Shown: positions 15,512 to 54,967 of the stretch, piece by piece
Numbering within the stretch: position 1 is the first letter of the stretch
How the letters are laid out: every line of letters begins with the position of its first letter
Assembly: GCA_030679255.1 (NCBI GenBank)
Contig: JAUXTO010000022.1
Coordinates: 128,915-192,914 of the forward strand
DNA from: Candidatus Gottesmanbacteria bacterium
Lineage (GTDB): Bacteria > Patescibacteriota > Microgenomatia > UBA10105 > UBA927
Length of the DNA: 64,000 nt
Direction: 5' to 3'
Notes under the pieces: generated by a model
The model's input: the letters and a program-made list of their open reading frames with translations, nothing else
What the model was told of the DNA's origin: nothing
Database searches by the model: none
Program-made: the position numbers and the translations under genes

Positions 15512-15731
15512 ATACAAAGCTCTATGAAAATGGAAAATGCAATTATCGAAGACTCACTCTCTGCAATAGAGAGCTTTTTAGTCGAAGCTCGGAGTCATAC
15601 GGCAGATTTTTTTTCACAAACTCTATCGCCCTTTTCTCGGCTTTATCTACTAATTTTACCAATCTATGATATTCCTTGCCTTCCTCTCGTCTGGATTTCA
15701 TATCTATATGTAGAGTAGCACGTAGTATGCG

Positions 15732-16373
15732 TTAGTCAATACGGCAATGGTACGTAGCAGTGAGAATGCGTTTTAATTCTGGCAACGCAAATGCTCCGAT
15801 TATCTGCGAGTTTGCTTGCATCGCTCTCATAATCTGTGCCACTTGATCTTTAGAAAACTGATGACTACATTTGGATACGATACGAATAATTGTATTTGTT
15901 GTTTCAAATGAGCTGCTCTCGCAAAGAGCATGAACAAGTGACTGTAAAGATTTTTTGTAGTATACAGTCTTCGGCTGGTAGTGTAGACCAATATGCGCAA
16001 CGGTAACGGCCAGCTCAAACAAATTATCCGTTGGCTCATTTCTGTATTGCAGCGCCTGATACTTATTGATAAATCCGTATGGATTTATGGTCTCAAGTTT
16101 GATTGGAATTATTTTCTTTTTCAAACACACGGCGTAACCTGTTTCCTGGTCAGTATACGAAGAATTCTTAAAACGTTCCGAAACAAGAGGGATAAAGAAG
16201 TCTGCGTTTCGTATGGCGTGAAGTATTTCTTTTTCCCAAATTTCAGACCCAAGAATGTCATCATGGGCGATAAATGTATCGTAACCGCAGTAACGAATCA
16301 ACAACTGTTTTAATCTTCCACCGATTTGCTTTTCCTCCGAGGAATAGCTGATAAACGCACGAGTTCGATCCAT
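15732..16373 (-). CDS. TIR domain protein (predicted NAD+ glycohydrolase) with unknown C-terminal domain
   Basis: Bacterial TIR signature RAFISYSSEEK..., ADFFIPLVSERF, and a conserved Glu in SSYTDQETGYAV. The C-terminal 100 aa or so has no recognisable motif. Confidence 0.8.
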   Translation of the reverse strand: MDRTRAFISYSSEEKQIGGRLKQLLIRYCGYDTFIAHDDILGSEIWEKEILHAIRNADFFIPLVSERFKNSSYTDQETGYAVCLKKKIIPIKLETINPYGFINKYQALQYRNEPTDNLFELAVTVAHIGLHYQPKTVYYKKSLQSLVHALCESSSFETTNTIIRIVSKCSHQFSKDQVAQIMRAMQANSQIIGAFALPELKRILTATYHCRID

Positions 16374-16482
16374 ATATAATTTCTTAGTCTTTCCTAAAAC
16401 TTAACAATCTTACCAGCCCAGACTCGCGTATTGGACATTTAGACCTGACCCACTTACTCCTCATTGATAGACTTCATAATGA

Positions 16483-17022
16483 TTACTTCAAAAGCTTCTT
16501 TACAGTCGTGGTTGTCGCCCCGTAGCACATTTTTAGATAGCTCAGGCCCTCCCGATGATCCTTATCGCTAAACGATTCAACACAATCCTCCAACACCACA
16601 ACCGTATAATTCTTCGCAAATGCATCGGCGCTGGTATGTCTCACACAAATATGGGTATGCTGCCCCACGAGAATCACCGTTTTGATTTCGTGTTGACGAA
16701 GCAACAAATCAAGACCGGTCTCATAAAATGCACTATAGGTGCGCTTACCAAGCACGATGTCTCCCTGTTTTGGATCGAGTTCTTTTATCACTTGAGCACC
16801 GGGACTACCGGCAAGCGCATGGGTGCCCCACACCTTTTCCTCCGGATCGCCTGGTAAATGTGCATCATTGGCATATACCACAAGCCAGTCCTTTGCCCTT
16901 GCAAACTCAAGAAGCTTGGCAATGTTGGGAATAATTCGTTTGGCCCGGTCATTTTTCAGCGCTCCATAAACGAAATCTTCAAGCATGTCTATGACAACCA
17001 CTGCATATTTATTTCTTACCAT
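16483..17022 (-). CDS. pncA: nicotinamidase (isochorismatase family)
   Basis: VVIDMLEDF (catalytic Asp), YANDAHLPGD...GTHA (metal ligands), and the Cys in GQHTHICV. Confidence 0.75.
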   Translation of the reverse strand: MVRNKYAVVVIDMLEDFVYGALKNDRAKRIIPNIAKLLEFARAKDWLVVYANDAHLPGDPEEKVWGTHALAGSPGAQVIKELDPKQGDIVLGKRTYSAFYETGLDLLLRQHEIKTVILVGQHTHICVRHTSADAFAKNYTVVVLEDCVESFSDKDHREGLSYLKMCYGATTTTVKKLLK

Positions 17023-17028
17023 AGTTTT

Positions 17029-18093
17029 TCAGCTAAAATTATTTACTTTCATGCGGCTGTTTACCTGATAACTTCTCCCAGCCTTGGCAATCCTTTTTCC
17101 ATTAACTTTGACAATGTCCGCCGTAAAATCGTTGTTCCCATGCACAAGTGCCGACCCCACGCCATATCCATCCACCGGCGTCTTTTCTTTCTCAAACATC
17201 CGTACCTTCTCCTCGGTAAATCCTCCGGACACGAGTATTTTAACATGGCCGTATCCATTGTCGTTGAGTGCTTTCCGAACGAGCATAACCAACGTCGGAT
17301 TAACCCCAAACATATTTTTTGTATTTTTACTCAATGATTTATCAACCATATTGCCCGCAGTATCCAGTCGTACGCCCCACAACTTTTTCCCAAGGGCTTT
17401 GGCCACCGCCAGCGAGGAACCCACGCAATCGTTATCAAAATCAACAAGGGCAACAATGTTCACACCACGAATATGTTTAGCAAACAATTCTGCTGCCTTC
17501 ACCGTACTACCATCATTGACTGCAATGAGTGCATGGGGGATAGTGCCGACGGGAATTCCGTTCCACCGTGATGCGTGGGCAACCGTGCACACGCCCGCCG
17601 CACCCCCGATGTGCGCCGCGTACCCATCACCTTCCTGATTATGGAAATCATCAAACCGGTCGGCAAAGAAAAACACCGGTTTGCCGTTCGCGGCTTCTAT
17701 AACGCAGCGCGTGTTGGTCGCCACCATCGTGCGCCGTGCGAGGATGCCCAAGTATAATGATTCAAGATGAGCAAAATACAAATATGAACCGGTAACGTGC
17801 ATTATCGGCTCTCGATTACCAATGGTATCGCCATCGGAAAGCGCGGATACAGTAAGTGTTTGGTTTTTTGAAACCCATCGGGCTCCCCGCCACATCCCCG
17901 CTCCTACACGAAGAAGCTCTCCTACCTCATCCACACCACATAAAACACTGTTCTCGTTTCTCTGAAATATCTGCATTGTCACAACGGTCGTATCGCCTTC
18001 CCGCTCGAGGATATATTTGGTCCGGTTGAAGTACGTGGCACTATAGAATCCGCGCCGAATCCGCTCAATAGTTAGCTTATCCCAATACGTCAT
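17029..18093 (-). CDS. pncB: nicotinate phosphoribosyltransferase (short archaeal-type)
   Basis: YFNRTKYILE N-terminal motif and NAPRTase-family core at 354 aa. Only a 6-nt gap separates it from pncA. Confidence 0.7.
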   Translation of the reverse strand: MTYWDKLTIERIRRGFYSATYFNRTKYILEREGDTTVVTMQIFQRNENSVLCGVDEVGELLRVGAGMWRGARWVSKNQTLTVSALSDGDTIGNREPIMHVTGSYLYFAHLESLYLGILARRTMVATNTRCVIEAANGKPVFFFADRFDDFHNQEGDGYAAHIGGAAGVCTVAHASRWNGIPVGTIPHALIAVNDGSTVKAAELFAKHIRGVNIVALVDFDNDCVGSSLAVAKALGKKLWGVRLDTAGNMVDKSLSKNTKNMFGVNPTLVMLVRKALNDNGYGHVKILVSGGFTEEKVRMFEKEKTPVDGYGVGSALVHGNNDFTADIVKVNGKRIAKAGRSYQVNSRMKVNNFS

Positions 18094-22125: not shown

Positions 22126-22244
22126 GACCCTAAGTATACCTGATCCGGCATCCCCGCAGCAACACCCACCATGTCTGATGGTTTATAGTTCACTATTAAC
22201 TATAAACAAACATTTGATATGTAAAAAAACTCTCCCAGCCGTTG

Positions 22245-22592
22245 TTATTTTTGTTGAGCTTTGATCATCAAATCAATCTCACGCTTCAAAACTGGCAGGT
22301 CGTCTTGTATCGTTTTCCAAATCACTTCTAGATCGATACCAAAGTACTCATGGACTACCTTGTCGCGCGCACCGACGACTTGTTTCCATGGGACAGTGGG
22401 ATACGCAAGACGCAGCGGCTCTGGTATGTGTCGCGCGGCTTCACCGATCACTTCGATGTTTCGAACCACCGCATCTATCGTCCGGGCGTCCCGGGAAAAC
22501 GCCTCAAAAGACATAGACGACACAAACTCGTTTATCTTTTCTATCGCCTCACGGATATCGGACAAGTAGAGAAGCGTGTTGTGTTCAGACAT
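22245..22592 (-). CDS. hepT: HepT-like toxin (DUF86/HEPN)
   Basis: HEPN-type Rx4HxY motif region in RDKVVHEYFGID. It overlaps the upstream MNT gene by 8 nt. Confidence 0.8.
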   Translation of the reverse strand: MSEHNTLLYLSDIREAIEKINEFVSSMSFEAFSRDARTIDAVVRNIEVIGEAARHIPEPLRLAYPTVPWKQVVGARDKVVHEYFGIDLEVIWKTIQDDLPVLKREIDLMIKAQQK

Positions 22593-22881
22593 AAACCGTC
22601 TCCCGTAAGACCACGTCTTTTATAAATGGTTTGAGTGCATTTACCGTAACGACATCCACATTCCGCTTCAAGAGTGTTTTTAAACGATCCTCAAGCTCAA
22701 TGAGCTTAAATAGCCCAATCGGTTGTGTGAGTTCTACGAGGATATCCACGTCGCTTGTTCGCTTGGTGTCGCCGCGCGCCACAGAGCCGAACACGCCCAA
22801 TCGTCTCACTGAGTATGATTCTCTAAAATGGGGAATGCTCTGCTTGAGTATCTTCTTTGCGGTTGCCAAATCTATCATCAT
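22585..22881 (-). CDS. mntA: MNT nucleotidyltransferase antitoxin
   Basis: GVFGSVARGDTKRTSDVDILV, the minimal NTase GSx9-13DxD motif. Confidence 0.8.
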   Translation of the reverse strand: MMIDLATAKKILKQSIPHFRESYSVRRLGVFGSVARGDTKRTSDVDILVELTQPIGLFKLIELEDRLKTLLKRNVDVVTVNALKPFIKDVVLRETVYV

Positions 22882-23048
22882 ATCTGTTTATTATACTGTT
22901 TTCTTGGAGAATTATCAGAAACAACTCTTACGGCACGGTTCTGCTGGTAGTATGTGTTTTTGGACTACCCCGCATAATGTAATAGGCGAGTGCCTCCCGT
23001 ACTTTTTTACGGTGTTTACCCCGTATGTCGCGCTCCTCGGGAGTGCGA

Positions 23049-23350
23049 GGCTGTAAGCCTCCAGACCGAGGGAAGCGTACTACGGGGCAACTTCCTCCCT
23101 GCCCGCAATGCCCTGCCCGAAGCTGCTGCATCGCTGCAGGCGGGTGCGCATAGCGTTGCAGGCGGGCCACGTGATGGGCACGTCTCTCATACTATCCGGC
23201 ATGGAGATGAGAAGACGGGCCTGCCCGCAATGCAAGCAACGCGTTGCAGGCGGGGATTATAGAGGAAAAGTTCCGCCGAAGTTGAATTGTTTTGCGAGAT
23301 GCTTACCAAGTCCCGCTGCAAGAGGAAGCTTCCGGCGACAAAAATGCCTT
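23049..23350. repeat. GC-rich composite repeat, copy A (about 300 bp)
   Basis: A core of about 83 nt (ctgcccgcaatgccctgcccgaagctgctgcatcgctgcaggcgggtgcgcatagcgttgcaggcgggccacgtgat) is identical to 24521-24596. A distal segment, gctgcaagaggaagct.ccggcgacaaaaatgccttg, is also shared. Confidence 0.85.
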
Positions 23351-24484: not shown

Positions 24485-24790
24485 CTGAAGCGCGAAGCGG
24501 TTCAGGGAGCAACCTCTTCCCTGCCCGCAATGCCCTGCCCGAAGCTGCTGCATCGCTGCAGGCGGGTGCGCATAGCGTTGCAGGCGGGCCACGTGATCAG
24601 GGAGCAACCTCTTCCCACGTAATCGGCACATCTCGCATACTATCCGGCATGGAGATGAGGAGCCGGGGATTGTAGAGGAAGAGTTCCGCGGCGGTCGTGG
24701 TATTTTGAGATATACCCTCGAGGTCGCGCTGCAAGAGGAAGCTCCCGGCGACAAAAATGCCTTGACCCACAAGTCTTTCTTTCCCCACGA
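24485..24790. repeat. GC-rich composite repeat, copy B, with internal 17-18-bp duplication (cagggagcaacctcttcc)
   Basis: See copy A. The short direct repeat cagggagcaacctcttcc flanks the identical core at 24503-24520 and 24597-24614. Confidence 0.85.
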
Positions 24791-26321
24791 CCGTACTCGT
24801 TCCGGTCTGGAAGGTCCCCGTGGGGCTCGTCACATAAACGCCTTCGATTGCTGGAGTGTTCGACGAATACAATCCACCGACGGAGGAGGCAACGGTGATA
24901 TTGCCGTTGACGATGAAGGCAGCAAAGCCCGATCCCGTCAGCGTCACTTTCCCACCAAGGGTGAGATTTCCATTAACAATAACTATAACCGTTTCTCCGT
25001 CGGCGACCGCCCAATCTCCGCTGGTCGTCATATTTCCCACCACATAGTAAGGGGTGGCGCGCGACGCGGGTTTGGCAACGGCTGTGAGATCTGCGAATGC
25101 ATCAGCCGTCGTCCCTCCCCCGAACCGGCGGTAAAAAAGATCATAATAATTTATATTTGCGTAGGCCGCATTGGCAAGTTGATTGGTCGAGGAGACATAG
25201 CTTTCTCCAACCAGGAGCGGACTGGCGTCAAAATCATAGCTTGTGCCGTAGGTGACCAGTCCCGGCGTCCCGCCGGATCCATCGAGCGCAAACGTCCGCG
25301 GACTGACCGACGCCGAAACCGGAGATGTCACGGCCCCCGATCCATACACATTACCGCCTCCGCCGGTTTGCACCCAAGGGCCGGAGAAGGTGTAGCCCAA
25401 TTGCCAGGTGATGGTATCCCCATCCACGGGCACGGAAAGCGTCGTCGAGAGTCCTTCGCCGGAAAGGGCAGCGTTGAGCACCCGACTCCAACACGCACGG
25501 GCCAAGGTGTAATCACTAGCGGCCGTGGGGGAGATCGTGTAGCTCCCGCCGACGATGGGGGAGAAGGATACATAATTATTGCCTGACTGGATTTGCGCCG
25601 TGGGTTGACTCGCCGATCCGGGGGTGAAGGCGTGGCTCGTGCCGGTTAAACCCGTGGTTGATGCCGCGACCGCTGTGCAGGACGTATCAGCAGCCGTAAC
25701 CTGCACGGCTTTGGCCTGGATCGCCCCCACACAATCGATGGTCTGGGTGTAGCCGGTATAGCAATCATACCCCACGGTCCTACTTTTCTTGGCCGGGCTT
25801 GCCGAGCAGACCGACCACGCGCTCACGTACGGCCCACCTTCCGTGCATCCCGGCGCGGGCGTACCGGACGGTGGAGGGGGCGCACTCCCGCCGGTCGGAA
25901 CCGGCGGGGGAGTCGATCCCGGCGGGGGAGTCGTCGTCACCGTTGGCGCCGTAGTCGGCGTCGGCAGCGCCGTCCCGCAATCCCCGGGATTACAATACGT
26001 ACAACAAATTTGTTGGATACAAGGGGCAGGATTCTGAATACAATCTGGTGGATCAGCTACGTATTCCAGTCGATATCCCGGAGTACAGTTTGGCGTGAGA
26101 TAAGGGGCTGTTCCACAATTTAGCCATACTTGTTCTAACTTTTGTCCACAATAATTTTGATTTACACTTGTACAAGATGTGGAGGTTCCTCCGCAGTTTG
26201 CCGAACAAAAATTTTGAGCAGATACGCTTGTCACCAAAAAAACCGAGGCAAAAAAGAAACCGACAATTATCGTGGCAAGCGTTTTAATAAATTTATTTAC
26301 ATCCATAGACAAGTAAAACAT
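24597..26321 (-). CDS. secreted/surface protein with Cys-rich domain, Pro/Thr-rich linker and large C-terminal domain
   Basis: N-terminal TM or signal segment, many paired Cys residues, and the linker PTPTTAPTVTTTPPPGSTPPPVP. The last 60 codons or so are encoded by repeat copy B. Confidence 0.5.
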   Translation of the reverse strand: MFYLSMDVNKFIKTLATIIVGFFFASVFLVTSVSAQNFCSANCGGTSTSCTSVNQNYCGQKLEQVWLNCGTAPYLTPNCTPGYRLEYVADPPDCIQNPAPCIQQICCTYCNPGDCGTALPTPTTAPTVTTTPPPGSTPPPVPTGGSAPPPPSGTPAPGCTEGGPYVSAWSVCSASPAKKSRTVGYDCYTGYTQTIDCVGAIQAKAVQVTAADTSCTAVAASTTGLTGTSHAFTPGSASQPTAQIQSGNNYVSFSPIVGGSYTISPTAASDYTLARACWSRVLNAALSGEGLSTTLSVPVDGDTITWQLGYTFSGPWVQTGGGGNVYGSGAVTSPVSASVSPRTFALDGSGGTPGLVTYGTSYDFDASPLLVGESYVSSTNQLANAAYANINYYDLFYRRFGGGTTADAFADLTAVAKPASRATPYYVVGNMTTSGDWAVADGETVIVIVNGNLTLGGKVTLTGSGFAAFIVNGNITVASSVGGLYSSNTPAIEGVYVTSPTGTFQTGTSTVVGKERLVGQGIFVAGSFLLQRDLEGISQNTTTAAELFLYNPRLLISMPDSMRDVPITWEEVAP

Positions 26322-26853
26322 CCAATAAATACTTCTTATCTCGGCCTTCCTGTTCCTGAAAAACTCCGGTCACCCAGGTGTCCGGCTCTATCCTTTTATA
26401 TGTCTCTTTATATAAAAAGAGCTTGCCTTGTTTCAGAAACGTATCTCTATTGGTTTGGAGCGTTGCTACATATTTGGAAAGATCCAGGTACGTAGAATAT
26501 GCCAGGGCTAAACTTCCATCAGCAAGTTTTATAAATTTATCCCTACACTCAATTACGCTTGTATCAGTCGCAGATACAACATAGGTCTTCTGTGACCAAA
26601 GGCTGAATGTTTCGCGGTTTACGCTGCTTATCACCCCCTGAATCTGGAGCATCTTAGGAGAATTGGAAAGCGTGGTTACGTAATTCCTATCCTGTTTTTT
26701 GTCGAGAAGATTGGTCGGGGTATTTCGATCTGCCTCTGTAACATAGATGGGTCGGGGCGGTGGAGGAAAACTAAACTTACGTATACCGATAATAACAAAT
26801 ACAAAGGCGCTTACAATAAGTAATCCAAACAAAAGAAAGACTAATTTTTTCAT
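26293..26853 (-). CDS. membrane-anchored hypothetical protein
   Basis: N-terminal TM helix LVFLLFGLLIVSAFVFVIIGI; no recognisable motif. Confidence 0.4.
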   Translation of the reverse strand: MKKLVFLLFGLLIVSAFVFVIIGIRKFSFPPPPRPIYVTEADRNTPTNLLDKKQDRNYVTTLSNSPKMLQIQGVISSVNRETFSLWSQKTYVVSATDTSVIECRDKFIKLADGSLALAYSTYLDLSKYVATLQTNRDTFLKQGKLFLYKETYKRIEPDTWVTGVFQEQEGRDKKYLLDVLLVYGCK

Positions 26854-26940
26854 GGGCATTGCTATACCCATTTGACCATAAATTAGCAATTAATACAAGA
26901 GGATTTTAAATCAACTGTGGAATATTTACGCAGTATTCTA

Positions 26941-29085
26941 CTACTCATACAACCTTGCCCTAACAAGCAAGTGAAATTTCTGACTATCATAAAGTGTTTT
27001 CATCAGGGCACGACGAGCATCTTGATCAGACAACGCAAGAATCTGTTTTCCTATACTATTGGCACCTTTCATTCCAATATTATCTTCAAGAAACTTTCCT
27101 TGATAAGCAAAGCTTGGATTATATTGTGAGGATGTCTTTGATGCATCATTCACATCAACTAATCCCATGCCAGTTGCCAGAAATATTTGGAACATCTGCC
27201 CAGGCGTTGGCTCCTTACCCACTTGCGCTTCCCAGAACGGTTGTCCATTTGGCAGCGTTGCATTTTTATGAAAATCTCTTGTACCCAACACCGAATCAGT
27301 ACTACCGATAGTATCGGTTATTCTCCCAATGGTAATAATATACGTATTCGGTTTCTCGATGGGGATATAAACGTGCATTTTAACTTTTATATCAACGCTT
27401 TTTCCAATACTCCAATCCATCTTCGGCAACGTCACATCATGTCCTCCGGCATAAATAGCCATTTGATAATATGCTGTATATTGGTATGGGATATCTTTAC
27501 CTAGTGGATCTAGCGTCGGCTGCAAATTAAAGCTTGGCTTTTGATAGGCGGGGTCCGCCTTTATTTTTTTAATCTTTTCTTGTAAGCTAGGTGTATTTAT
27601 CGCGTCAAATTTTTCTTTTGCTAAACGTGTTGCATATTCAGAATTTATTGCACAACATTCCGCAAAATTCACCGGTGGATTTAAGACCCAATTCCGTGCC
27701 TCCGGCGTCGAGGTCGGGGCAAAAGTAGGAGTAACCGTCGGGACGGCAGGCTTTGTCGGGGACACCTGTTGTTCAGCTAATTTAAAAGCACTGAGCAGGA
27801 TGTTTCCCATCATCGTTCTAAACCCGTCCGGGGTCTTTGACGCGCCACTTCCCGAGTCGGTTAATTGGGTTGATTTTCCTAACTCCTTGTCTACTAGCCA
27901 TAACGACTCCCCATCAAACACCATGCTCCACTTTCCTATCACTATTTTTCCATTCCTGGCTTCTCCAAGCTGGAATACCTTCTTACCAACTGTAGAGGAA
28001 GCTTCGTCTGTAACCAATGCGTATCCCTCACATGGATTGCCTTGCGCGTCACAGCGTACAAAAAATGGTACCGATCGTGTTGATTTGTCTTTTCCGAGAA
28101 ATACGGCCTGACCAACAGCCCATCGATCGCTAGAATTAAATGAGGCATCTGAACTGACGGGGCGTAAAACCACTAACTCATCAACGCCTTCCTGTGTTAG
28201 AAATTGTACGGGTCGATCGAATTGGTATTGCTCCGATCCGAATGCAACGCTGTACCACGGTTTCGTCGATGCGTTGACAAGATCTTTAAAAGATGTTGCC
28301 CTATTATCTATTTTTGCCGGGTTTTCTACCCGAACAGGTTGGACTGACGATATTGGCGTACATGCACTTAAAACTAAACTTGACGCTACAACACCATTGA
28401 CTCCCCATCGAAACGCTTTTATTTTTTTAAACCTTCTCCCAAGAGAATCTTTCTTGGGCGTTTTAATGGGTATTCCGGTTTCTGCCATTAAACCAGCGGC
28501 TAGCCCGATGCCAAACAAGGGGCCTAGTCCACCATTCGCTTCAGTGGGAGCATCAGAAGTAAACAATGTTCCTGCGGACGAATTTGGCCCAGTTTGTCGC
28601 AATTTTGCGTTCCTTAATTTTGTTAGATCCCAGTCGTTTGCTTCTGCGAGTAGTGCTGCGTCTGGAGAAGCGCCGCCTGCTTGCCTCACTGCAGCTTCAC
28701 GCGTAATCAAACCGGAATCTTCTGCTCCACGAATTGCACTCAAAAATTCTATTCTCTGTGCATGCTGCATCGCCAATTGCACCTCAAGGGAAACTGGCTG
28801 TCCAAAGCGTGTCCTCGGTTTTTCCGGCATCACACTAAATACTTCAAACCCGCTTGGAGTCAAACCAACATAATGAGTGGCGTTATGTCGAACAAGGGAG
28901 ATAACTTGTGTAGGAGTTAAAAGATCGCCTTTTTGATCGTCAACGAAAAATTTGTCGTGGACATTTTCCCAATCTGTTGAAATACTACTTGGATTAATAT
29001 GGGCTTCAGATTCACCAAGCAAATATCCTTCGTGCCTCACAAAAAAATCTGGATGTGTCGCGTAGGCCTCTGTAGAGTTAATCAT
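26941..29085 (-). CDS. large hypothetical protein with internal lipoprotein-type signal (possible lipoprotein if translation starts internally)
   Basis: Around residue 205-250 the sequence MAETGIPIKTPKKDSLGRRFKKIKAFRW-GVNGVVASSLVLSAC has the n-region, h-region and LSAC lipobox of a lipoprotein signal. Confidence 0.45.
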   Translation of the reverse strand: MINSTEAYATHPDFFVRHEGYLLGESEAHINPSSISTDWENVHDKFFVDDQKGDLLTPTQVISLVRHNATHYVGLTPSGFEVFSVMPEKPRTRFGQPVSLEVQLAMQHAQRIEFLSAIRGAEDSGLITREAAVRQAGGASPDAALLAEANDWDLTKLRNAKLRQTGPNSSAGTLFTSDAPTEANGGLGPLFGIGLAAGLMAETGIPIKTPKKDSLGRRFKKIKAFRWGVNGVVASSLVLSACTPISSVQPVRVENPAKIDNRATSFKDLVNASTKPWYSVAFGSEQYQFDRPVQFLTQEGVDELVVLRPVSSDASFNSSDRWAVGQAVFLGKDKSTRSVPFFVRCDAQGNPCEGYALVTDEASSTVGKKVFQLGEARNGKIVIGKWSMVFDGESLWLVDKELGKSTQLTDSGSGASKTPDGFRTMMGNILLSAFKLAEQQVSPTKPAVPTVTPTFAPTSTPEARNWVLNPPVNFAECCAINSEYATRLAKEKFDAINTPSLQEKIKKIKADPAYQKPSFNLQPTLDPLGKDIPYQYTAYYQMAIYAGGHDVTLPKMDWSIGKSVDIKVKMHVYIPIEKPNTYIITIGRITDTIGSTDSVLGTRDFHKNATLPNGQPFWEAQVGKEPTPGQMFQIFLATGMGLVDVNDASKTSSQYNPSFAYQGKFLEDNIGMKGANSIGKQILALSDQDARRALMKTLYDSQKFHLLVRARLYE

Positions 29086-29110
29086 AAAAACCTATAGTAT
29101 CATTTTAAGT

Positions 29111-29232
29111 GCTCTCCGTCAACCCAGCTCCGGTTTTTTTTGCTTACATAAACTGGTGCTCGGATCAACCCAAAAAAATACCCCGCCGGGGCGGGGGTTA
29201 TTCTGCCGTTTTATCTGTGACAATAAATTTGT
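29111..29232. repeat. cassette-boundary repeat X1 (contains hairpin CCCCGCC-GG-GGCGGGG flanked by A-run/T-run)
   Basis: It shares gctctccgtcaaccc...ggtgctcggatcaacccaaaaaaataccccgccggggcggggg...ttattctgccgttttatc modules with 30606-30668, 31015-31102 and 32626-32700. Confidence 0.8.
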
Positions 29233-29329
29233 CTAAAAACTTTTTCATAGATTTCTTCTTCTGTATGCTACTATACAAAACTCCCTCTTCCCTGTCAATT
29301 TTTGACCACTTTCCCTGCTCACCGTCAAT

Positions 29330-29584
29330 TCAATTTCGACCACTGTCCAATAATCGAAAAAACTGATCAATGGTCACGAGGTGAACGTCATCGTATTGAC
29401 GCAAACGAAGGAGGTGTGCGTCTCCGGTCACGATATAGCCCGCGTTCCCAACAAGAGCAGTTTCAACGATGGGGTTATCTTCGAGGTAAGCACCAAACAG
29501 ACCTTCGTTCACGATTGCTGCTGGTCTTCCACCAAAAAGAATACCGGAAAGGTACACGTTTGTATCAAGAACTGAGCGTAGCAT
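29330..29584 (-). CDS. short PIN-family protein (TIGR00305-like, middle region missing)
   Basis: N-terminal motif VLDTNVYLSGILFGG and C-terminal motif YIVTGDAHLL...VTIDQFFRLL. Confidence 0.45.
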   Translation of the reverse strand: MLRSVLDTNVYLSGILFGGRPAAIVNEGLFGAYLEDNPIVETALVGNAGYIVTGDAHLLRLRQYDDVHLVTIDQFFRLLDSGRN

Positions 29585-29774
29585 TCGGGTATCGCGTGTC
29601 ATACAGTGTTCGCATCACGTCACGTATTGATAACGAAGCCTTCTTTGATCGCGCCACGCCTCGCTTTACTGCTTTTTGCCAGGAGATCACCGCCTTCAAT
29701 CCATCAATTTCTGATTGCAGGCGTGCGACTCTGGTCGTCATGGTGTTTGGTGAAAAACGAATAATCGGTTCCAT
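29565..29774 (-). CDS. putative antitoxin partner of the PIN-like protein
   Basis: A small basic protein directly upstream of the PIN gene and overlapping it; no confident family assignment. Confidence 0.3.
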   Translation of the reverse strand: MEPIIRFSPNTMTTRVARLQSEIDGLKAVISWQKAVKRGVARSKKASLSIRDVMRTLYDTRYPNATLSS

Positions 29775-29828
29775 ACTCAGAGTATACAAAAATACGACTA
29801 CTATTACAAATTTGGTGTCACTTTCTCT

Positions 29829-29925
29829 GCTCTCCGTCAACTCTACTTTTTCGTCAAAAAAGGACCCCTCATCGGGGTCTCTGGTGATCCTTGATGGAAA
29901 AAGTGATAAAATCATCGACCAAATA
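29829..29925. repeat. cassette-boundary repeat Y1 (hairpin GACCCC-TCAT-GGGGTC after A-run)
   Basis: gctctccgtcaactc...caaaaaaggacccctcatcggggtctctggtgatccttgatgg...tgataaaat is nearly identical to 31521-31600. Confidence 0.8.
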
Positions 29926-29930
29926 CTCTT

Positions 29931-30284
29931 TCATGGATAGTTGTGTTGCAATTTTTTTTGCAGTACTACCAGCTGCTTTTTAAGGATTGGAAGTTCTTGC
30001 TCCACTATCTCCCACACCCTACCCATGCTCATTCCAGCATACTCATGAATGGCCACATTGCGAAATCCTACAATAGACCGCCACTGAGTTTCGGGTGAAA
30101 GAACGCGAATATCATCAGGGATGCGGGTAGATGCTTCCCCGATTATCATCAGCCTACGAATTACGGAATCCTGTTTTTCCTTATCTCTGGAAAAATCCAC
30201 CTCCGTGACACCTGATACATACTCTTCAATAAGCGCTATCGCCTCGAGCATATCACTCACAAACACAAGAATATTTTTATTCAT
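29931..30284 (-). CDS. hepT: HepT-like toxin (DUF86/HEPN)
   Basis: FRNVAIHEYAGMSM carries the HEPN motif. It overlaps the upstream MNT gene by 4 nt. Confidence 0.8.
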   Translation of the reverse strand: MNKNILVFVSDMLEAIALIEEYVSGVTEVDFSRDKEKQDSVIRRLMIIGEASTRIPDDIRVLSPETQWRSIVGFRNVAIHEYAGMSMGRVWEIVEQELPILKKQLVVLQKKLQHNYP

Positions 30285-30574
30285 AATTTCGCCTCGTACA
30301 TCGTCACTGCATCAGCTAATATGCCGTCCTTAAACTCAGGGCGCAATGCAACATATTCAACGAGGTCTACGTGGCGGCCAAACCGTTCTGAAAGCTCTTC
30401 TTGTAGTCCAAAAAAGTCGAGTGCTCTTCCTTCTCCCATTTCCACAAGGATATCGATATCGCTACTCGCGCTTCCTGCTTCGCCGCGGGCAATAGATCCA
30501 AAAAGTGCAGCTTTTCGAACCTTATACTGTTTAAACAGCTCGGTTGTCTTTTGTTTTATCGCTTGTATATCCAT
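30281..30574 (-). CDS. mntA: MNT nucleotidyltransferase antitoxin
   Basis: LFGSIARGEAGSASSDIDILV. The start is trimmed to MDIQAIK. Confidence 0.8.
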   Translation of the reverse strand: MDIQAIKQKTTELFKQYKVRKAALFGSIARGEAGSASSDIDILVEMGEGRALDFFGLQEELSERFGRHVDLVEYVALRPEFKDGILADAVTMYEAKL

Positions 30575-30605
30575 AACAAGAGTATAGCATGATAACTCAC
30601 GAATT

Positions 30606-30668
30606 TCCAAAAAAAATACCCCGCCTGGACGGAGTTTATTCTGCCGTTTTATCAAGTGCAATAAAAAT
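30606..30668. repeat. cassette-boundary repeat X2 (partial; hairpin + ttattctgccgttttatc tail)
   Basis: aatttccaaaaaaaataccccgcctggacggagtttattctgccgttttatcaagtgcaataaa matches the 3' half of X1. Confidence 0.75.
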
Positions 30669-30692
30669 ATCCGGATAGATGATCATGCGTTT

Positions 30693-30902
30693 TTATGCGT
30701 ATACCGCAGGAATGCTTAATGTAAGCGACGTGATATCTTTCTTAGCAACCTTGCTCGAGACATCCAAGACCTCTATACCTACCATATCCTCTCCTGCATA
30801 ATCCACGAGAAGATCGTCACGAAGCTCAAGCGTTTTCGTGCTTTTCTTATCGGAAAAGTAAATATACATGGCATTGGCTTTTGGATCAAAGGTGACATTC
30901 AT
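30693..30902 (-). CDS. DUF2283 domain protein
   Basis: 69 aa; the N-terminus VTFDPKANAMYIYFSD...VDYAGEDMVGIEVL is typical of DUF2283. Confidence 0.6.
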   Translation of the reverse strand: MNVTFDPKANAMYIYFSDKKSTKTLELRDDLLVDYAGEDMVGIEVLDVSSKVAKKDITSLTLSIPAVYA

Positions 30903-31014
30903 ATGAACATATCTTACTGTTTTATCCGATTCTTTATTCGACTAACCTCTTATCTATGCCGCGCGCAGCAAGCACTTCTTCCGCGTGTTTCGTGTAGATG
31001 ATTCGCTTCATATT

Positions 31015-31102
31015 CGCTCTGCCGTCAACCCAGCGCCTGTCTCCTGGTGCTCGGGTCAACCCAAAAAAATACCCCGTCGCTGGGGCCTGATCATTTTTTT
31101 CC
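31015..31102. repeat. cassette-boundary repeat X3
   Basis: ctgccgtcaacccagcgcctg...ggtgctcgggtcaacccaaaaaaataccccgtcgctgggg. Confidence 0.8.
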
Positions 31103-31237
31103 TAAGCCCGCATCATGCGGACCAAGCGCATCAATGGTCAGCGTGTCACCGTCTTTACGAAAAGACGCGCGGTGATGCCGGTCTAAAGGAAGCTTCAAAA
31201 ATGCCTTTTCTGCGTCATGCGAAAAGATAATGTTCAT
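31091..31237 (-). pseudogene. truncated RelE/ParE-family toxin remnant (48 codons)
   Basis: Manual translation gives MNIIFSHDAEKAFLKLPLDRHHRASFRKDGDTLTIDALGPHDAGLGKK. The N-terminus matches the RelE/ParE start and the C-terminus the IGHRKD-like end, with the middle missing. Its start overlaps the antitoxin stop (ATGA). The 3' half is made of repeat X3. Confidence 0.35.
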
Positions 31238-31515
31238 GGGGCAATCGAGTCAAGATGCCGTACGAAATCATTTGCTGAATCAAACGATTTATACTTTCCG
31301 GCAGCGACATCTTTTTTTGATCGCTCAATGCTTTGCTCCCACCAGGCATCACTGCCGTACTGAGCGGGAAGGATCTGGCTAAGCCTTTTGCGCATAGCAA
31401 GAGCCGCACGGGAAAACGTCTCCAGATCGTCCAGGAGTCCCGAGAGCGCCTTTGTGTCAATTTCTGTAGATAGCGTTTTTCCATTTGCCATATGGTTTCC
31501 TTGTATCATGTTCAT
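31234..31515 (-). CDS. ParD/RelB-like antitoxin
   Basis: The C-terminal region SIERSKKDVAAGKYKSFDSANDFVRHLD resembles ParD-family antitoxins. It is coupled to the downstream toxin remnant. Confidence 0.45.
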   Translation of the reverse strand: MNMIQGNHMANGKTLSTEIDTKALSGLLDDLETFSRAALAMRKRLSQILPAQYGSDAWWEQSIERSKKDVAAGKYKSFDSANDFVRHLDSIAP

Positions 31516-31520
31516 GGCGA

Positions 31521-31600
31521 ACTGTCAAAACAATTTCCAAAAAAAGACCCCTCATCGGGGTCTCTGGTGATCCTTGATGGCCATTGATAAAATGTTCAAC
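31521..31600. repeat. cassette-boundary repeat Y2
   Basis: caatttccaaaaaaagacccctcatcggggtctctggtgatccttgatgg...ttgataaaat. Confidence 0.8.
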
Positions 31601-31610
31601 TATTTTTTCG

Positions 31611-31922
31611 TCATAGTATTTGAATACCATGGGTTTTTACTTCATGAACCAATAAATTATATTTATCATCAAAATCGGCAGGATTAAATGCTACTGGTTC
31701 AATTCTGCTGTCCACTTTTAATGTTTCGAGGCGCAAATCCATTTCCTCGTCAAAATAGTCTTTCCCAAACGCGGGGGATATGATGCATACATCGATATCG
31801 CTTCCATCATGGATAAACCCTCTTGCAAACGAACCAAACAGATAAGCAGACTGCACCGGATATTTATGGGATATGAGTGCTAAATACTTTTTCAATAATA
31901 TTGTTACGTCGGCTTTACTCAT
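31611..31922 (-). CDS. MNT-type nucleotidyltransferase (antitoxin-like)
   Basis: LFGSFARGFIHDGSDIDVCI, a GSx10DxD NTase motif. It overlaps the upstream HEPN gene by 4 nt. Confidence 0.75.
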   Translation of the reverse strand: MSKADVTILLKKYLALISHKYPVQSAYLFGSFARGFIHDGSDIDVCIISPAFGKDYFDEEMDLRLETLKVDSRIEPVAFNPADFDDKYNLLVHEVKTHGIQIL

Positions 31923-32344
31923 AAAGAAAAATGTGAAATAAGCACTATTCTAATTTCTGTCGCTTTTTGAAACCACAAGTCTGCGTATTCTTTATTGGCT
32001 TTTTTATAAAAATTTTTCTTGTAATCATCGTAACGCGCAGAGAGATTAAAGGAAGATAGTTCTTTTAGATCAGATACCTGGGACTGGGACATCTCAATTT
32101 CTGCTCTCTTGGCCAACTCCACCAGATCATGAATAGCCAACGGATGACTGTCCTTACGATGATAATGGAGACCTTTGAGTAATTTCTCAAGCGATAGGTG
32201 GATAAAAAATAATGCATAATCATATCTCTTCCCCCCAGCGTAAATTTCCTGAGAAAACTCCCAGTCCTTATCCGATGTTTGCTTCCAAAAAGCTACCACT
32301 TCTTCTTGCGTCATGGTTACATTATATACTAATGTTTTCGTCAA
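31919..32344 (-). CDS. HEPN domain protein (toxin-like)
   Basis: Alpha-helical protein of 141 aa paired with the MNT gene. The partner order HEPN then MNT is inverted relative to the two HepT/MNT pairs. Confidence 0.65.
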   Translation of the reverse strand: MTKTLVYNVTMTQEEVVAFWKQTSDKDWEFSQEIYAGGKRYDYALFFIHLSLEKLLKGLHYHRKDSHPLAIHDLVELAKRAEIEMSQSQVSDLKELSSFNLSARYDDYKKNFYKKANKEYADLWFQKATEIRIVLISHFSL

Positions 32345-32595
32345 GCAAAAACGTATGGCTGAGGTTGGGGCGAGAAGGGGACATACTCTATAGATTTCAC
32401 CCGCTCTGCGGCATAATGCAGTGCCACCTCCACCGCCCCCTTCGGGACGGTCGGATATGCACTATACACCTCACCCGCCGTCGAGCCGGATTCCAAAAGT
32501 TCCGGGATTTGCCACACCATCACCCGAGTGCCGGCGATCACCGGCTTTCCGTGGCAAATATGAGGGTCAATGCTAATAGTTATTGTTCGTTTCAT
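32341..32595 (-). CDS. DUF433 domain protein
   Basis: HICHGKPVIAGTRVMV is the DUF433 signature. A 4-nt overlap couples it to the HEPN gene. Confidence 0.7.
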   Translation of the reverse strand: MKRTITISIDPHICHGKPVIAGTRVMVWQIPELLESGSTAGEVYSAYPTVPKGAVEVALHYAAERVKSIEYVPFSPQPQPYVFA

Positions 32596-32625
32596 TACGA
32601 GTGATTATACGTTTTTGTCTCTATC

Positions 32626-32700
32626 AGCGTCAATCCAGCACCTGCCCGCTGGTGCTCGGATCAACCCAAAAAATACCCCGCCGGGGCGGGGCTTGATTAT
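32626..32700. repeat. cassette-boundary repeat X4
   Basis: cgtcaatccagcacctgcccgctggtgctcggatcaacccaaaaaataccccgccggggcggggcttgatt. Confidence 0.8.
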
Positions 32701-33299
32701 CCAATGAGTTCTCTCTTCAATAATGTTCCTACAAACATCACAGCTTTACCGAGAAGTTTGAGGTCAAACCGTACTGATTTTTGCTTCGTGTAGGCAATGT
32801 CGCTTCGCATCCACTCGTCAAACGGCCTGGAGTGGTAGCCTTCAAATATCCAGGGAGAGATGATGCCGGGCAAGATCGCGTGGCGCTTCCGCATCCAAGG
32901 CTTAAGGAGTTTGGCTTCCACGCTCGGCAACGGCCGCGGACCGAAGAGGGCCATCTCGCCGCGCACCACGTTGACCAGTTGTGGCAATTCATCGAGTCCC
33001 ACGTGGCTCAAAAACTTGCCCAACCGCGTAAACCGCGGGTCGTCATACATTTTAAATACCGGCCCACGCGCTTGATTGCGACGGAGATAATAGCGTTTAA
33101 GTTGCTCCGCCCCCAGCTTCATCGTCCGGAATTTCACCATCGTAAACGGTTTTCCGCCCAGTCCCACCCGCCGCTGCCGGTAGAGGACGGGGGAGCCGTC
33201 GATAAGCCGGATAAGGATAGCCACCACCCCCATGACGGGCAATGCGCCAAGAAACAAAAGGGAAATAAATATCCGATACGCCCACTTCTTCATATGCAT
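32697..33299 (-). CDS. sugar phosphotransferase (bacterial sugar transferase family, WbaP/WcaJ C-terminal-type)
   Basis: KFRTM...GPRP motif region FGPRPLPSVEAKL, 200 aa with one TM helix. Confidence 0.8.
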   Translation of the reverse strand: MHMKKWAYRIFISLLFLGALPVMGVVAILIRLIDGSPVLYRQRRVGLGGKPFTMVKFRTMKLGAEQLKRYYLRRNQARGPVFKMYDDPRFTRLGKFLSHVGLDELPQLVNVVRGEMALFGPRPLPSVEAKLLKPWMRKRHAILPGIISPWIFEGYHSRPFDEWMRSDIAYTKQKSVRFDLKLLGKAVMFVGTLLKRELIG

Positions 33300-54904: not shown

Positions 54905-54967
54905 TGCTCCCGCCTCTGCCCGCACCGTGTGCTCGTCACATAATTCTATCACGTGTATATCAAGAAT

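What the first reader, a model, noticed from the sequence alone, without database searches (positions are those of the whole stretch)
29100..32700. Repeat-delimited array of five toxin-antitoxin cassettes (integron-like organisation) built from two modular repeat families
Six copies of a modular repeat of 60-120 bp recur at 29111, 29829, 30606, 31015, 31521 and 32626. Each contains an A-run, a GC hairpin (CCCCGCC-GG-GGCGGGG or GACCCC-TCAT-GGGGTC) and a conserved tail, with shared modules such as gctctccgtcaacYc and aatttccaaaaaaa. Every interval between repeats holds one small minus-strand cassette. The cassettes are PIN-like plus antitoxin, HepT/MNT, DUF2283, ParD-like plus a RelE remnant, and DUF433-HEPN-MNT. 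This layout of gene cassettes separated by structured repeats resembles a sedentary chromosomal integron cassette array, and those are known to be enriched in toxin-antitoxin cassettes. The GTCAAC module weakly resembles an attC inverse core, but the repeats do not obviously fit the canonical R''/R' GTTRRRY boxes. No integrase lies inside the window. The hairpins probably also act as bidirectional intrinsic terminators.
Basis: seen in the sequence. Interest (0 to 1): 0.75.

Follow-up and report, generated by a model that had tools for sequence, protein, structure and literature searches.

The report
Toxin-antitoxin cassette hot spot, not integron
In a Gottesmanbacteria (CPR) chromosome, five small toxin-antitoxin operons sit in a row at one hot spot whose content differs between related genomes, separated by copies of a hot-spot-specific terminator-plus-promoter repeat, and the array shows none of the tested hallmarks of an integron.

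Summary
The six repeats are real, non-random and confined to 29.1-32.7 kb of the window. All genes lie on the minus strand. On that strand each repeat is a GC hairpin plus T-run placed 1-16 nt after a cassette's stop codon (module T), followed by the -35 region of the next promoter (modules P, P2, Pm), sometimes with a second hairpin (H).

The same locus, between a sugar-transferase gene and a large variable gene, was recovered from seven other Gottesmanbacteria lineages. It holds 0, 0, 1, 1, 2, 3 and 5 cassettes, in partly different order. So the island is not static.

T occurs only at this locus in 156 kb examined, which argues against a generic terminator. It is not an integron. There are no AAC...GTT R boxes, each junction has two separate hairpins, no integrase was found in the 64 kb window, and the left cassette boundaries are imprecise.

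The most likely reading is an accretion hot spot. Homologous terminator and promoter junctions are duplicated, converted and recombined, and toxins decay in place. A structure-specific recombinase acting in trans on the T hairpin is not excluded (about 0.15).

The empty site holds a conserved promoter, 15-17-codon open frame and terminator unit.

The parts
32697..33299 (-). Left conserved flank of the hot spot: sugar transferase (Bac_transf). Its stop codon lies 5 nt before the first T hairpin.
   Evidence: Pfam PF02397, E 6.6e-47. Orthologues at 69-81% identity flank the hot spot in all relatives.
32601..32691 (-). Junction R6. T1 hairpin plus T-run at 32668-32691, hairpin H at 32629-32665, promoter-like TTGACG (32628-32633), 18 nt spacer, TATAAT (32604-32609) for the DUF433 operon.
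   Evidence: 44 nt are 97.7% identical to R1.
31611..32595 (-). Cassette 1: DUF433 (32341-32595), HEPN (31919-32314), MNT nucleotidyltransferase (31611-31922).
   Evidence: Pfam. HEPN is 90% and MNT 84% identical to the single cassette of L003. DUF433 is 75% identical to a gene at a different locus in L005.
31499..31593 (-). Junction R5. T2 tail, hairpin GACCCCGATGAGGGGTC and T-run at 31539-31593. Module P (GGAAATT...TTGACAG) at 31522-31538. -10-like GATACAAGG at 31499-31507.
   Evidence: The TTGACAG...GATACAAGG promoter is shared with the intact antitoxin-ParE cassette of L015.
31091..31515 (-). Cassette 2: antitoxin-like gene (31234-31491/31515) plus a 48-codon internally deleted ParE-like toxin remnant (31091-31237).
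   Evidence: No Pfam or NCBIfam hit. 48% and 58% identity to the L015 pair, whose toxin carries PF24732 ParE_like (weak).
31015..31087 (-). Junction R4. Degenerate T1 at 31063-31087, hairpin H at 31024-31060, P2 -35 (GTTGACGGCAGAGCG) at 31015-31029, abutting the DUF4258 start codon.
30693..31011 (-). Cassette 3: 25-codon DUF4258 toxin remnant (30934-31011) plus DUF2283 (30693-30902).
   Evidence: Pfam. DUF2283 is 93% identical to L005, where DUF4258 is full length at 79 aa.
30577..30686 (-). Junction R3. 16-codon open frame MIIYPDIFIALDKTAE at 30636-30686, T1 hairpin plus T-run at 30609-30635, module P at 30596-30608, -10 TATACT at 30581-30586.
   Evidence: The same miniORF-T1-P-MNT arrangement occurs in L005 and L011.
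29931..30574 (-). Cassette 4: MNT antitoxin (30281-30574) plus intact HepT toxin (29931-30284).
   Evidence: Pfam PF18765/PF01909 and PF01934. Homologous cassettes in L005 and L011 have truncated HepT of 41 and 38 aa.
29776..29912 (-). Junction R2. T2 tail, hairpin and T-run at 29856-29912, P2 (GTTGACGGAGAGCAGAGAAAGTGAC) at 29817-29841, -10 TATACT at 29781-29786.
   Evidence: The T2-TTTTTTGACG...GTTGACGGAGAGCAGGGAAAGTGA block is shared with L011, where it runs straight into the big gene's -10.
29330..29774 (-). Cassette 5: antitoxin-like gene (29565-29774) plus a shortened PIN remnant (29330-29602).
   Evidence: PF13470 and TIGR00305 match only the C-terminal 22-27 residues. The cassette is flanked by two P2 copies, at 29817-29841 and 29306-29329.
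29094..29329 (-). Junction R1, the resident unit of the empty site. Partial P2 copy at 29306-29329. Promoter Pm (TTGACA, 17 nt, TATAGT) at 29270-29298. 16-codon open frame MKKFLDKFIVTDKTAE at 29198-29248. T1 at 29172-29196. Long hairpin H at 29118-29169. Big-gene promoter P2 (TTGACG, 17 nt, TACTAT) at 29094-29122.
   Evidence: Conserved at about 75% nt identity in L001. Present as the only content of the locus in L004 and L012.
24597..29085 (-). Right conserved flank: a hypervariable 714-aa protein (26941-29085), a 198-aa protein (26293-26889) and a 574-aa protein (24597-26321).
   Evidence: Syntenic in L004, L005, L012 and L015. The 198-aa protein is 67-77% identical in L004, L005 and L012. 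The 574-aa protein is 58-74% identical in L004, L005 and L015. The large protein is only 27-30% identical.

Best explanation
The region is a lineage-specific chromosomal hot spot about 25 kb from oriC. It lies between a sugar-transferase gene and a variable large-protein gene, and small type II toxin-antitoxin operons accumulate there as self-contained, co-oriented transcription units.

The 'repeats' are the junction kit of these units. Module T is a hot-spot-specific intrinsic terminator, a GC hairpin ending in GGGGT(A/C)TTTTTT-GG, that closes each unit right after its last stop codon. It is followed by the -35 region of the next promoter (TTGACGGAGAGC = P2, TTGACAGG = Pm, TTGGAAATT = P), sometimes embedded in a second hairpin (H).

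The ancestral, empty locus holds one such unit: promoter Pm, a 15-17-codon open frame, T, then P2 and the big gene. Cassettes have been added, lost and reordered by recombination that uses these short homologous junctions. The candidate processes are Campbell-type or unequal crossing-over, homology-facilitated illegitimate recombination of incoming DNA, and gene conversion between copies. Each of these duplicates T or P2 on both sides of an insert.

Once resident, the toxins decay while the antitoxins persist.

Shown here: the anatomy, the terminator and promoter signals, the locus specificity of T, the variable content between lineages, intragenomic homogenisation and the imprecise left junctions. 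Inferred: the recombination mechanism and its dependence on general rather than dedicated recombination.
For: 1. Every repeat contains a minus-strand hairpin plus T-run, and most are followed by a sigma-70-like promoter hit.

2. The orthologous locus carries different content in different lineages:
- nothing but the Pm-miniORF-T unit in L004 and L012
- HEPN-MNT in L003
- antitoxin-ParE in L015
- MNT-HepT' plus DUF4258-DUF2283 in L005-L010
- DUF433(+DUF5615 pseudogene), HicBA and MNT-HepT' in L011
- five cassettes in the window

The MNT-HepT and DUF4258-DUF2283 order is inverted between the window and L005.

3. The lineages are roughly equidistant by the flanking sugar transferase, and the two empty sites are not sisters. 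Several gains or losses are therefore needed.

4. T occurs only at this locus. The regex GGGGT[ACT]T{5,} and an nhmmer profile of 20 copies find nothing else in 156 kb.

5. The T variant travels with the upstream genes and the P/H/P2 variant with the downstream genes. Homology between contexts ends right after TTTTTTGG.

6. Inserts are flanked by direct copies of P2 or T. Antitoxin-PIN' lies between 29817-29841 and 29306-29329. DUF433-DUF5615' in L011 lies between two P2 copies.

7. Left breakpoints differ from case to case: at the ATG, about 30 nt upstream, at the -35, or 13-21 nt into the P2 spacer. This points to imprecise rather than site-specific joining.

8. R1/R6 and R2/R5 are 97.7% identical, while orthologous junctions in other genomes are 90% identical or less. 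In addition, R2 carries the tail of the HEPN-MNT cassette rather than the tail seen after HepT' in L011. Both observations indicate gene conversion within the array.

9. Three of the five window toxins, and HepT in L005 and L011, are truncated.
Against: - General recombination on 25-45 nt of homology is inefficient, and nothing here shows that it operates.
- A hairpin conserved at the 3' end of every cassette, with right-hand breakpoints that always fall just after the T-run, is also what a structure-specific recombinase would produce.
- All cassettes share one orientation. Site-specific capture would explain that as well as selection for co-directional transcription does.
- No donor copies of the cassettes with or without T are known, because exact-pattern scans of the public collections found nothing.
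- The rest of the source genome could not be examined.
- The order of the window array across the 43-44 nt repeats rests on one MAG assembly. An independent Logan assembly of the same organism stops inside R5.
Confidence: 0.6

Rival explanations
1. A non-canonical, integron-like capture system. The T hairpin, alone or with H, is a structure-recognised recombination site carried at the 3' end of every cassette. A recombinase encoded elsewhere (Xer-like, another tyrosine or serine recombinase, or a single-strand transposase) excises and reinserts the cassettes.
For: - Every cassette in eight lineages ends in T, and T is exclusive to this locus.
- Right-hand homology breakpoints always fall right after TTTTTTGG.
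- All cassettes are co-oriented.
- Cassette order differs between genomes.
- DUF433 occupies different loci in different genomes.
- H folds better on the minus strand, using G-T/G-U wobble pairs and a bulged G (-36.2 vs -28.4 kcal/mol for R6). That strand is the inferred lagging-strand template given dnaA/dnaN and the GC-skew switch. This is the same logic as attC bottom-strand folding.
Against: - No recombinase in 64 kb or in the flanks of seven relatives.
- Left boundaries are imprecise.
- Some cassettes (antitoxin-PIN', DUF433-DUF5615') lack their own T and are bounded by P2 copies instead.
- A second variable toxin-antitoxin spot at 22.1-23.2 kb exchanges cassettes without any T.
- T has the full anatomy of an ordinary intrinsic terminator.
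Confidence: 0.15
2. A static or purely decaying island. An ancestor already carried a long toxin-antitoxin array, and the lineages differ only by deletions between repeats. The repeats are shared terminators with no role in acquisition.
For: - Cassette proteins are not systematically more similar than the flanks. MNT is 53-57% and antitoxin-ParE 48-58% identical, against 69-79% for Bac_transf.
- Many toxins are decayed.
- Direct repeats of 43-44 nt would readily delete intervening cassettes.
Against: - The order of MNT-HepT and DUF4258-DUF2283 is inverted between the window and L005.
- HicBA, antitoxin-PIN and the different DUF433 alleles (41% identity) are each confined to one lineage.
- HEPN (90%) and DUF2283 (93%) are more conserved than the flanks.
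- The empty sites are not sister lineages.
- Intragenomic near-identity of R1/R6 and R2/R5 shows ongoing exchange.
Confidence: 0.15
3. A canonical sedentary chromosomal integron array, or a CALIN (cluster of attC sites lacking an integrase).
For: A co-oriented array of small toxin-antitoxin cassettes with structured inter-cassette repeats of 60-120 nt, and variable content between relatives.
Against: - No AAC...GTT conserved triplets or R boxes. These are the most conserved attC positions according to PMC4889954.
- The boxes around H are direct repeats.
- Each junction has two hairpins.
- No intI was found.
- The cassettes have promoters.
Confidence: 0.03
4. Dispersed REP/MITE-like intergenic repeats that inserted independently between pre-existing genes.
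For: Hairpin H is bracketed by a 7-8 nt direct repeat (GGGTTGA), like a target-site duplication around a small palindromic element.
Against: There are no copies of T, H, P or P2 outside the hot spot in the 64 kb window or in about 90 kb from relatives. Exact copies are absent from the scanned public collections.
Confidence: 0.05

Closest known systems
Sedentary chromosomal integron cassette arrays and CALINs (IntegronFinder definition, PMC4889954)
   Same: Co-oriented array of small cassettes, enriched in toxin-antitoxin modules. Each cassette is followed by a structured repeat of about 60-120 nt. Content and order differ between related genomes. The repeats are chimeric, with the left part following the upstream cassette and the right part the downstream one.
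   Different: No R''/R' boxes or AAC/GTT triplets. Two independent hairpins instead of one imperfect attC stem. The hairpin is a canonical terminator with a T-run. No IntI or attI. Cassettes have promoters. Left boundaries are imprecise.
Minimal mobile elements and intergenic mosaic repeats of Neisseria (PMC3082526 and PMC2649163 were retrieved by title and abstract only; the details are from my own knowledge)
   Same: A slot between two conserved genes holds different whole-gene cassettes in different lineages. The intergenic DNA is a mosaic of short repeat modules that carry promoters or terminators. Exchange is by general recombination rather than by a dedicated enzyme.
   Different: The cassettes here stack into arrays of up to five. 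The repeats are confined to one locus rather than dispersed genome-wide. Natural transformation in this organism is only presumed.
pdif (XerC/XerD) modules of Acinetobacter plasmids (PMC6449649, PMC13141974; retrieved by title and abstract only)
   Same: Arrays of small modules, often toxin-antitoxin pairs, bounded by short recombination sites and shuffled between replicons, using a recombinase encoded elsewhere.
   Different: As I recall it, pdif sites are 28-bp sites (two 11-bp Xer-binding arms around a 6-bp spacer) in alternating orientation. All repeats here are direct, GC-hairpin plus T-run, with variable loops and no such architecture. The setting is chromosomal, not plasmid.
Ordinary intrinsic terminators and promoters in toxin-antitoxin or defence islands
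   Same: The T modules have the full anatomy of rho-independent terminators. P, P2 and Pm match the sigma-70 consensus. Toxin decay is typical of chromosomal toxin-antitoxin clusters.
   Different: The terminator is one homologous sequence family restricted to this locus and conserved across lineages whose flanking genes are only 65-81% identical. It is duplicated with each insert.

Membership tests
Integron (complete) | An integron integrase gene (intI; PF00589 plus an IntI-specific domain) adjacent to the array. | tested here: not met
   No PF00589 or other recombinase hit in the window ORFs tested across the 64 kb. None in the precomputed Pfam annotation of 6-10 kb flanks in L002-L016. The rest of the genome is not available.
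Integron / CALIN | attC sites with R''(RYYYAAC) and R'(GTTRRRY) boxes whose AAC/GTT triplets pair at the base of the stem. | tested here: not met
   Zero box pairs 50-150 nt apart on either strand in 29000-32800, against 6 per strand in the whole window. The boxes around H read GTT...GTT on minus and AAC...AAC on plus.
Integron / CALIN | A single imperfect hairpin (R-L boxes, extrahelical bases, variable terminal structure) scored by the IntegronFinder attC covariance model. | not testable with these tools
   The model is not available here and Rfam holds no attC family; the Rfam scan gave only chance-level hits. Folding shows two independent hairpins per junction. H has one bulged G.
Integron / CALIN | Co-oriented cassettes whose presence and order vary between related genomes. 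| tested here: met
   0, 0, 1, 1, 2, 3 and 5 cassettes at the orthologous locus, with order inverted between the window and L005.
Minimal-mobile-element-type hot spot | A slot between two conserved genes holding different whole-gene cassettes in different lineages. | tested here: met
   Bac_transf on one side and the big-protein/~190-aa/~575-aa genes on the other in all lineages.
Minimal-mobile-element-type hot spot | Exchange by transformation and homologous recombination in the flanks. | not testable with these tools
   Inferred only from imprecise junctions and intragenomic conversion.
pdif / Xer modules | 28-bp XerC-spacer-XerD sites in alternating orientation bounding the modules. | tested here: not met
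   All 20 T copies and all P2 copies are in direct orientation. The loops are variable and there is no 11-6-11 architecture.
Intrinsic (rho-independent) terminator | A GC-rich stem-loop followed by a T-run, downstream of a stop codon on the coding strand. | tested here: met
   Scan hits at 32692, 31086, 30635, 29879 and 29196 on the minus strand. R5 is identical in sequence to R2. Termination activity was not measured.
REP/MITE-type dispersed repeat | Many copies at unrelated intergenic sites in the genome. | tested here: not met
   None outside the hot spot in 156 kb. The whole genome was not available.
Type II toxin-antitoxin modules | Adjacent small genes matching toxin and antitoxin families. 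| tested here: met
   HepT/MNT, HEPN/MNT, DUF433, DUF4258/DUF2283 and PIN_3; ParE_like through L015. Activity was not tested, and three toxins are truncated.

The most novel reading that the evidence does not exclude
The hot-spot-specific T hairpin, with its invariant GGGGT-T-run-GG 3' side and sometimes paired with the strand-specific hairpin H, is the attachment site of a previously undescribed cassette-capture system in CPR bacteria. It would be a functional analogue of attC, recognised as folded single-stranded DNA on the lagging-strand template by a recombinase encoded elsewhere. The conserved Pm-miniORF-T unit would be the resident attI-like entry point, and it would also gate read-through into the array.
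Probability: 0.13. Interest if true: 0.85.

Novelty: new variant of a known kind. Interest (0 to 1): 0.55.

Why it matters
CPR bacteria have tiny genomes, and little is documented about how they acquire accessory genes. This locus is a concrete, comparable example of a gene-accretion site, with empty, singly occupied and multiply occupied states in related genomes and a diagnostic repeat at every boundary.

If the junction repeats are only substrates of general recombination, the locus illustrates how terminator and promoter modules can act as 'portable homology' that builds cassette arrays without an integrase. If a dedicated enzyme acts on the hairpin, it would be a new cassette system outside the integron family.

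Either way, the locus cautions against calling integrons from layout alone.

Tried and rejected
- Rfam scan of 28900-32900 at E<=10: only chance-level hits.
- Exact-pattern scans for H, T2, T1 and the Pm leader in genome contigs (2), metagenome contigs (2) and viral contigs (4): no match. The repeats are therefore lineage-restricted.
- Exact look-ups of the window's own sugar transferase (200-aa start) and of P0001 failed. The 198-aa start (P0003) worked.
- Canonical attC: rejected on the box test and the folds.
- dif/Xer-like site in the TTTATT-N7-ATAAA box upstream of T1: the half-sites are in the wrong relative order and are not conserved in L004, L005 or L012 (by inspection).
- IS200/IS605-type insertion of H 3' of TTGAT/TTGAC: rejected because H is bracketed by a direct duplication, which that family does not make (own knowledge).
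- MiniORF as a protein-coding gene: the frame is open in all 8 copies, but entropy by codon position is 0.57/0.83/0.81 and there are 23 synonymous against 243 non-synonymous codon differences, so there is no coding signature. As a structured sRNA: no conserved pairing except the terminator.
- NCBIfam gave nothing for the two unassigned antitoxins or for the three right-flank proteins.
- Covariation in T could not be scored cleanly, because T1 and T2 hairpins are out of register by 2 nt in the alignment.

Full report
**Source and setting**

The 714-aa ORF at 26941-29085(-) is 100% identical to a protein of a Candidatus Gottesmanbacteria MAG (CPR/Patescibacteria; locus tag Q8L37_04010, contig 258 kb). 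dnaA (54953-56341) and dnaN (56532-57644) lie in the window. The cumulative GC skew turns at about 58-60 kb. The array is therefore about 25 kb from the origin. Its genes, all on the minus strand, are co-directional with replication (inference).

**1. The observation**

The six repeats are real. Three diagnostic patterns of 22-33 nt match 3, 2 and 3 times within 29.1-32.7 kb. They match nowhere else in the 64 kb, with 0 matches expected by chance. The repeat finder and blastn recover the same families. R1/R6 share 44 nt at 97.7% identity and R2/R5 share 43 nt at 97.7%.

Pfam confirms the cassette content:
- DUF433-HEPN-MNT
- an unassigned antitoxin-like gene plus a 48-codon toxin remnant
- a 25-codon DUF4258 remnant plus DUF2283
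- MNT-HepT
- an antitoxin-like gene plus a shortened PIN

**2. Anatomy on the coding (minus) strand**

Read 5'->3' on the minus strand, each junction has the following parts.

- Module T is a GC hairpin ending in GGGGT(A/C)TTTTTT-GG, placed 1-16 nt after the last stop codon of the unit. T1 is CCCCGCCCCGGCGGGG in R1 and R6, and degenerate in R3 and R4. T2 is GACCCCGATGAGGGGTC in R2 and R5. These are called as intrinsic terminators on the minus strand only and fold as such.
- After the T-run comes the 5' region of the next unit. This is P (TTGGAAATT...; R3, R5), P2 (GTTGACGGAGAGC; R1, R2, R4, degenerate in R6) or Pm (TTGACAGG, 17 nt, TATAGT; upstream of the miniORF in R1).
Promoter-like hits with 16-18 nt spacing exist for R6, R3, R2 and twice in R1.
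- In R1, R4 and R6 a second hairpin, H, lies between the T-run and P2 and includes the -35 in its 3' arm. On the minus strand it forms a 14-15 bp stem with one bulged G and two G-U/G-T wobble pairs. On the plus strand those become A-C mismatches (-36.2 vs -28.4 kcal/mol for R6).
- The 'conserved tail' of R1 and R3 is a 16-codon open frame: MKKFLDKFIVTDKTAE at 29198-29248 and MIIYPDIFIALDKTAE at 30636-30686. Its stop lies 1-3 nt before the hairpin.

**3. Related genomes**

Homologues of the flanking sugar transferase led to the orthologous locus in seven further lineages. These are 69-81% identical in that protein and roughly equidistant from one another. In each genome where the contig extends beyond the cassettes (L004, L005-L010, L012, L015), the left flank is Bac_transf and the right flank is a large variable protein followed by genes of about 190 aa and about 575 aa. 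In L003 and L011 the contig ends within the large gene.

| Locus | Source | Content between the flanks |
|---|---|---|
| L004 | ERZ2470813 | Pm-miniORF-T, then P2-big gene (the empty site) |
| L012 | SRR22388331 | Pm-miniORF-T, then P2-big gene (the empty site) |
| L003 | GCA_016218205.1 | T, then HEPN-MNT-T |
| L015 | SRR22387951 | an intact antitoxin-ParE pair, then T |
| L005-L010 | six Hainich groundwater contigs | miniORF-T, MNT-HepT'-T, DUF4258-DUF2283-miniORF-T |
| L011 | GCA_900218215.1 | T2-H-P2, DUF433 (+ DUF5615 pseudogene), Pm-miniORF-T, HicB-HicA-T, Pm-miniORF-T, MNT-HepT'-T2-P2 |
| window | this MAG | five cassettes |

Several points follow from the comparison.
- The order of MNT-HepT and DUF4258-DUF2283 is inverted between the window and L005.
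- The window's DUF433 is 75% identical to a DUF433 at a different locus in L005, but only 41% identical to the hot-spot DUF433 of L011.
- The two empty sites are not sister lineages.

The island is therefore not static, and several independent gains, losses or moves are required.

**4. What the repeats are**

T is not the organism's generic terminator. A regex for its 3' half and an nhmmer profile built from 20 copies find it only at this locus, in 156 kb from ten loci.

The T variant follows the upstream genes. T2 follows HEPN-MNT in both the window and L003, and follows HepT in both the window and L011. T1 follows the miniORF everywhere. The module after the T-run follows the downstream gene: P with MNT in three genomes, the TTGACAG...GATACAAGG promoter with antitoxin-ParE in two, and P2 with the big gene in all.

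When the same cassette sits in two contexts, homology on its right side ends just after TTTTTTGG. On its left side the end point varies: the ATG for DUF4258, about 30 nt upstream for HEPN, the -35 for antitoxin-ParE, and 13-21 nt into the P2 spacer for several others.

Two cassettes (antitoxin-PIN' in the window and DUF433-DUF5615' in L011) have no T of their own. They are bracketed instead by direct copies of P2.

R2 carries the tail of the HEPN-MNT cassette rather than the tail found after HepT' in L011. R1/R6 and R2/R5 are far more alike than orthologous junctions between genomes. Both facts point to gene conversion inside the array.

Three of the five window toxins, and HepT in L005 and L011, are truncated.

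**5. Integron test**

According to the IntegronFinder paper, attC sites are single palindromic structures with R and L boxes. Their most conserved positions are the AAC triplet and its complementary GTT (PMC4889954).

- No RYYYAAC...GTTRRRY pair 50-150 nt apart exists on either strand in 29000-32800. There are six per strand in the whole window.
- The boxes around H are direct repeats (GTT...GTT on minus, AAC...AAC on plus) that pair only through wobble.
- Each junction folds into two hairpins.
- Rfam finds nothing.
- No integrase or transposase family appears among the window ORFs tested or in the annotated flanks of the relatives.
- The IntegronFinder covariance model itself could not be run.

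**6. Most likely mechanism (confidence about 0.6)**

This is a hot spot in which self-contained toxin-antitoxin transcription units accumulate. Its homologous terminator and promoter junctions serve as short patches of homology for insertion, deletion, reordering and conversion. Flanking duplication of T or P2 is the footprint of single-crossover or unequal exchange. Imprecise left junctions suggest an illegitimate component. Toxin decay follows.

The rivals are:
- a dedicated structure-specific recombinase acting on T or H from elsewhere in the genome (about 0.15). Not excluded, because of the invariant right-hand breakpoint, the uniform orientation and the strand-specific folding of H on the presumed lagging-strand template.
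- pure differential loss from a long ancestral array (about 0.15)
- dispersed MITE-like repeats (about 0.05)
- a canonical integron or CALIN (about 0.03)

**7. The resident unit**

The empty site holds a strong promoter (TTGACA, 17 nt, TATAGT, 11/12 matches), an open frame of 15-17 codons and T. This unit is conserved in L001, L004, L005, L011 (twice), L012 and the window (twice).

The frame is open in all eight copies compared, and its stop always lies 1-3 nt before the hairpin. However, substitutions show no codon-position bias, and no RNA structure beyond the terminator is conserved.

A plausible but untested role is a leader whose translation, not its product, modulates termination at T.

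**8. Caveats**

- Only the window and short stretches of relatives could be examined.
- The exact-pattern scans were too strict to find diverged copies.
- The order of the five cassettes depends on one MAG assembly across 43-44 nt repeats. The independent Logan contig of the same organism confirms the sequence from the flank only as far as R5, and ends inside its hairpin.
- Multi-cassette arrays are nevertheless confirmed independently in six Hainich contigs and in L011.

Noticed in passing
window 29172-29298 and 30609-30686; L004 10585-10742; L012 985-1144; L011 2972-3113 and 3676-3817; L001 3855-3992; L005 10580-10710 and 11695-11790: A conserved mini-unit occupies the empty hot spot and recurs inside arrays. 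It consists of the promoter TTGACA-17-TATAGT, a 15-17-codon open frame (consensus M-x3-[PL]-[DG]-x-F-I-x3-K-T-A-E) and a terminator starting 1-3 nt after the stop. The frame is always open, but there is no codon-level selection signature and no conserved RNA fold apart from the terminator. It may be a translated leader gating read-through.
   Followed up: partly
window 22139-23248 (MNT 22585-22881, HepT 22245-22592, minus strand); L005 18522-20000: A second variable toxin-antitoxin slot lies between the 218-aa gene and rnpA. The window holds an MNT-HepT pair where L005 holds DUF433 plus DUF2268. There are no T/H/P2 repeats here, so cassette turnover in these genomes does not require the T repeat.
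   Followed up: partly
window 26941-29085 versus L005 11828-14638, L012 1191-3770, L015 1602-4127, L004 10950-13303; L001 4288-5619: The large gene right of the hot spot is hypervariable (27-30% identity where detectable), while its two downstream neighbours are 58-77% identical in most lineages. In L001 a 72% identical homologue sits directly downstream of a prepilin peptidase and pilin (N_methyl) genes, which hints at a pilus-associated surface protein.
   Followed up: partly
window 54953-57644 and GC-skew turn near 58-60 kb: dnaA and dnaN with a cumulative GC-skew minimum place the replication origin inside the window. The toxin-antitoxin array lies about 25 kb away and is transcribed co-directionally with replication.
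   Followed up: partly
window 60042-63746 (-): A 1234-aa TraG/HerA-like P-loop ATPase is interrupted by an intein with a LAGLIDADG homing-endonuclease domain.
   Followed up: no
window 14221-18093 (-): A TIR-domain protein (15732-16373) is embedded among NAD-metabolism genes: NAD synthase at 14221-15006, an isochorismatase-family protein at 16483-17022 and a QRPTase-like gene at 17029-18093.
   Followed up: no
L002 (Logan SRR13727518 contig), end = window 31551: An independent assembly of the same organism is 100% identical to the window from 36000 down to 31551 and stops inside the T2 hairpin of R5. This is an assembly break at the 43-nt repeat shared with R2. The order of the cassettes beyond that point is therefore not independently verified.
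   Followed up: partly
L011 2533-2900: Downstream of the hot-spot DUF433 in L011 lies an unannotated, frame-disrupted gene that looks like a DUF5615/PIN-like toxin judged by eye from the translation (no domain search was run). It would be another decayed toxin in the same locus.
   Followed up: no
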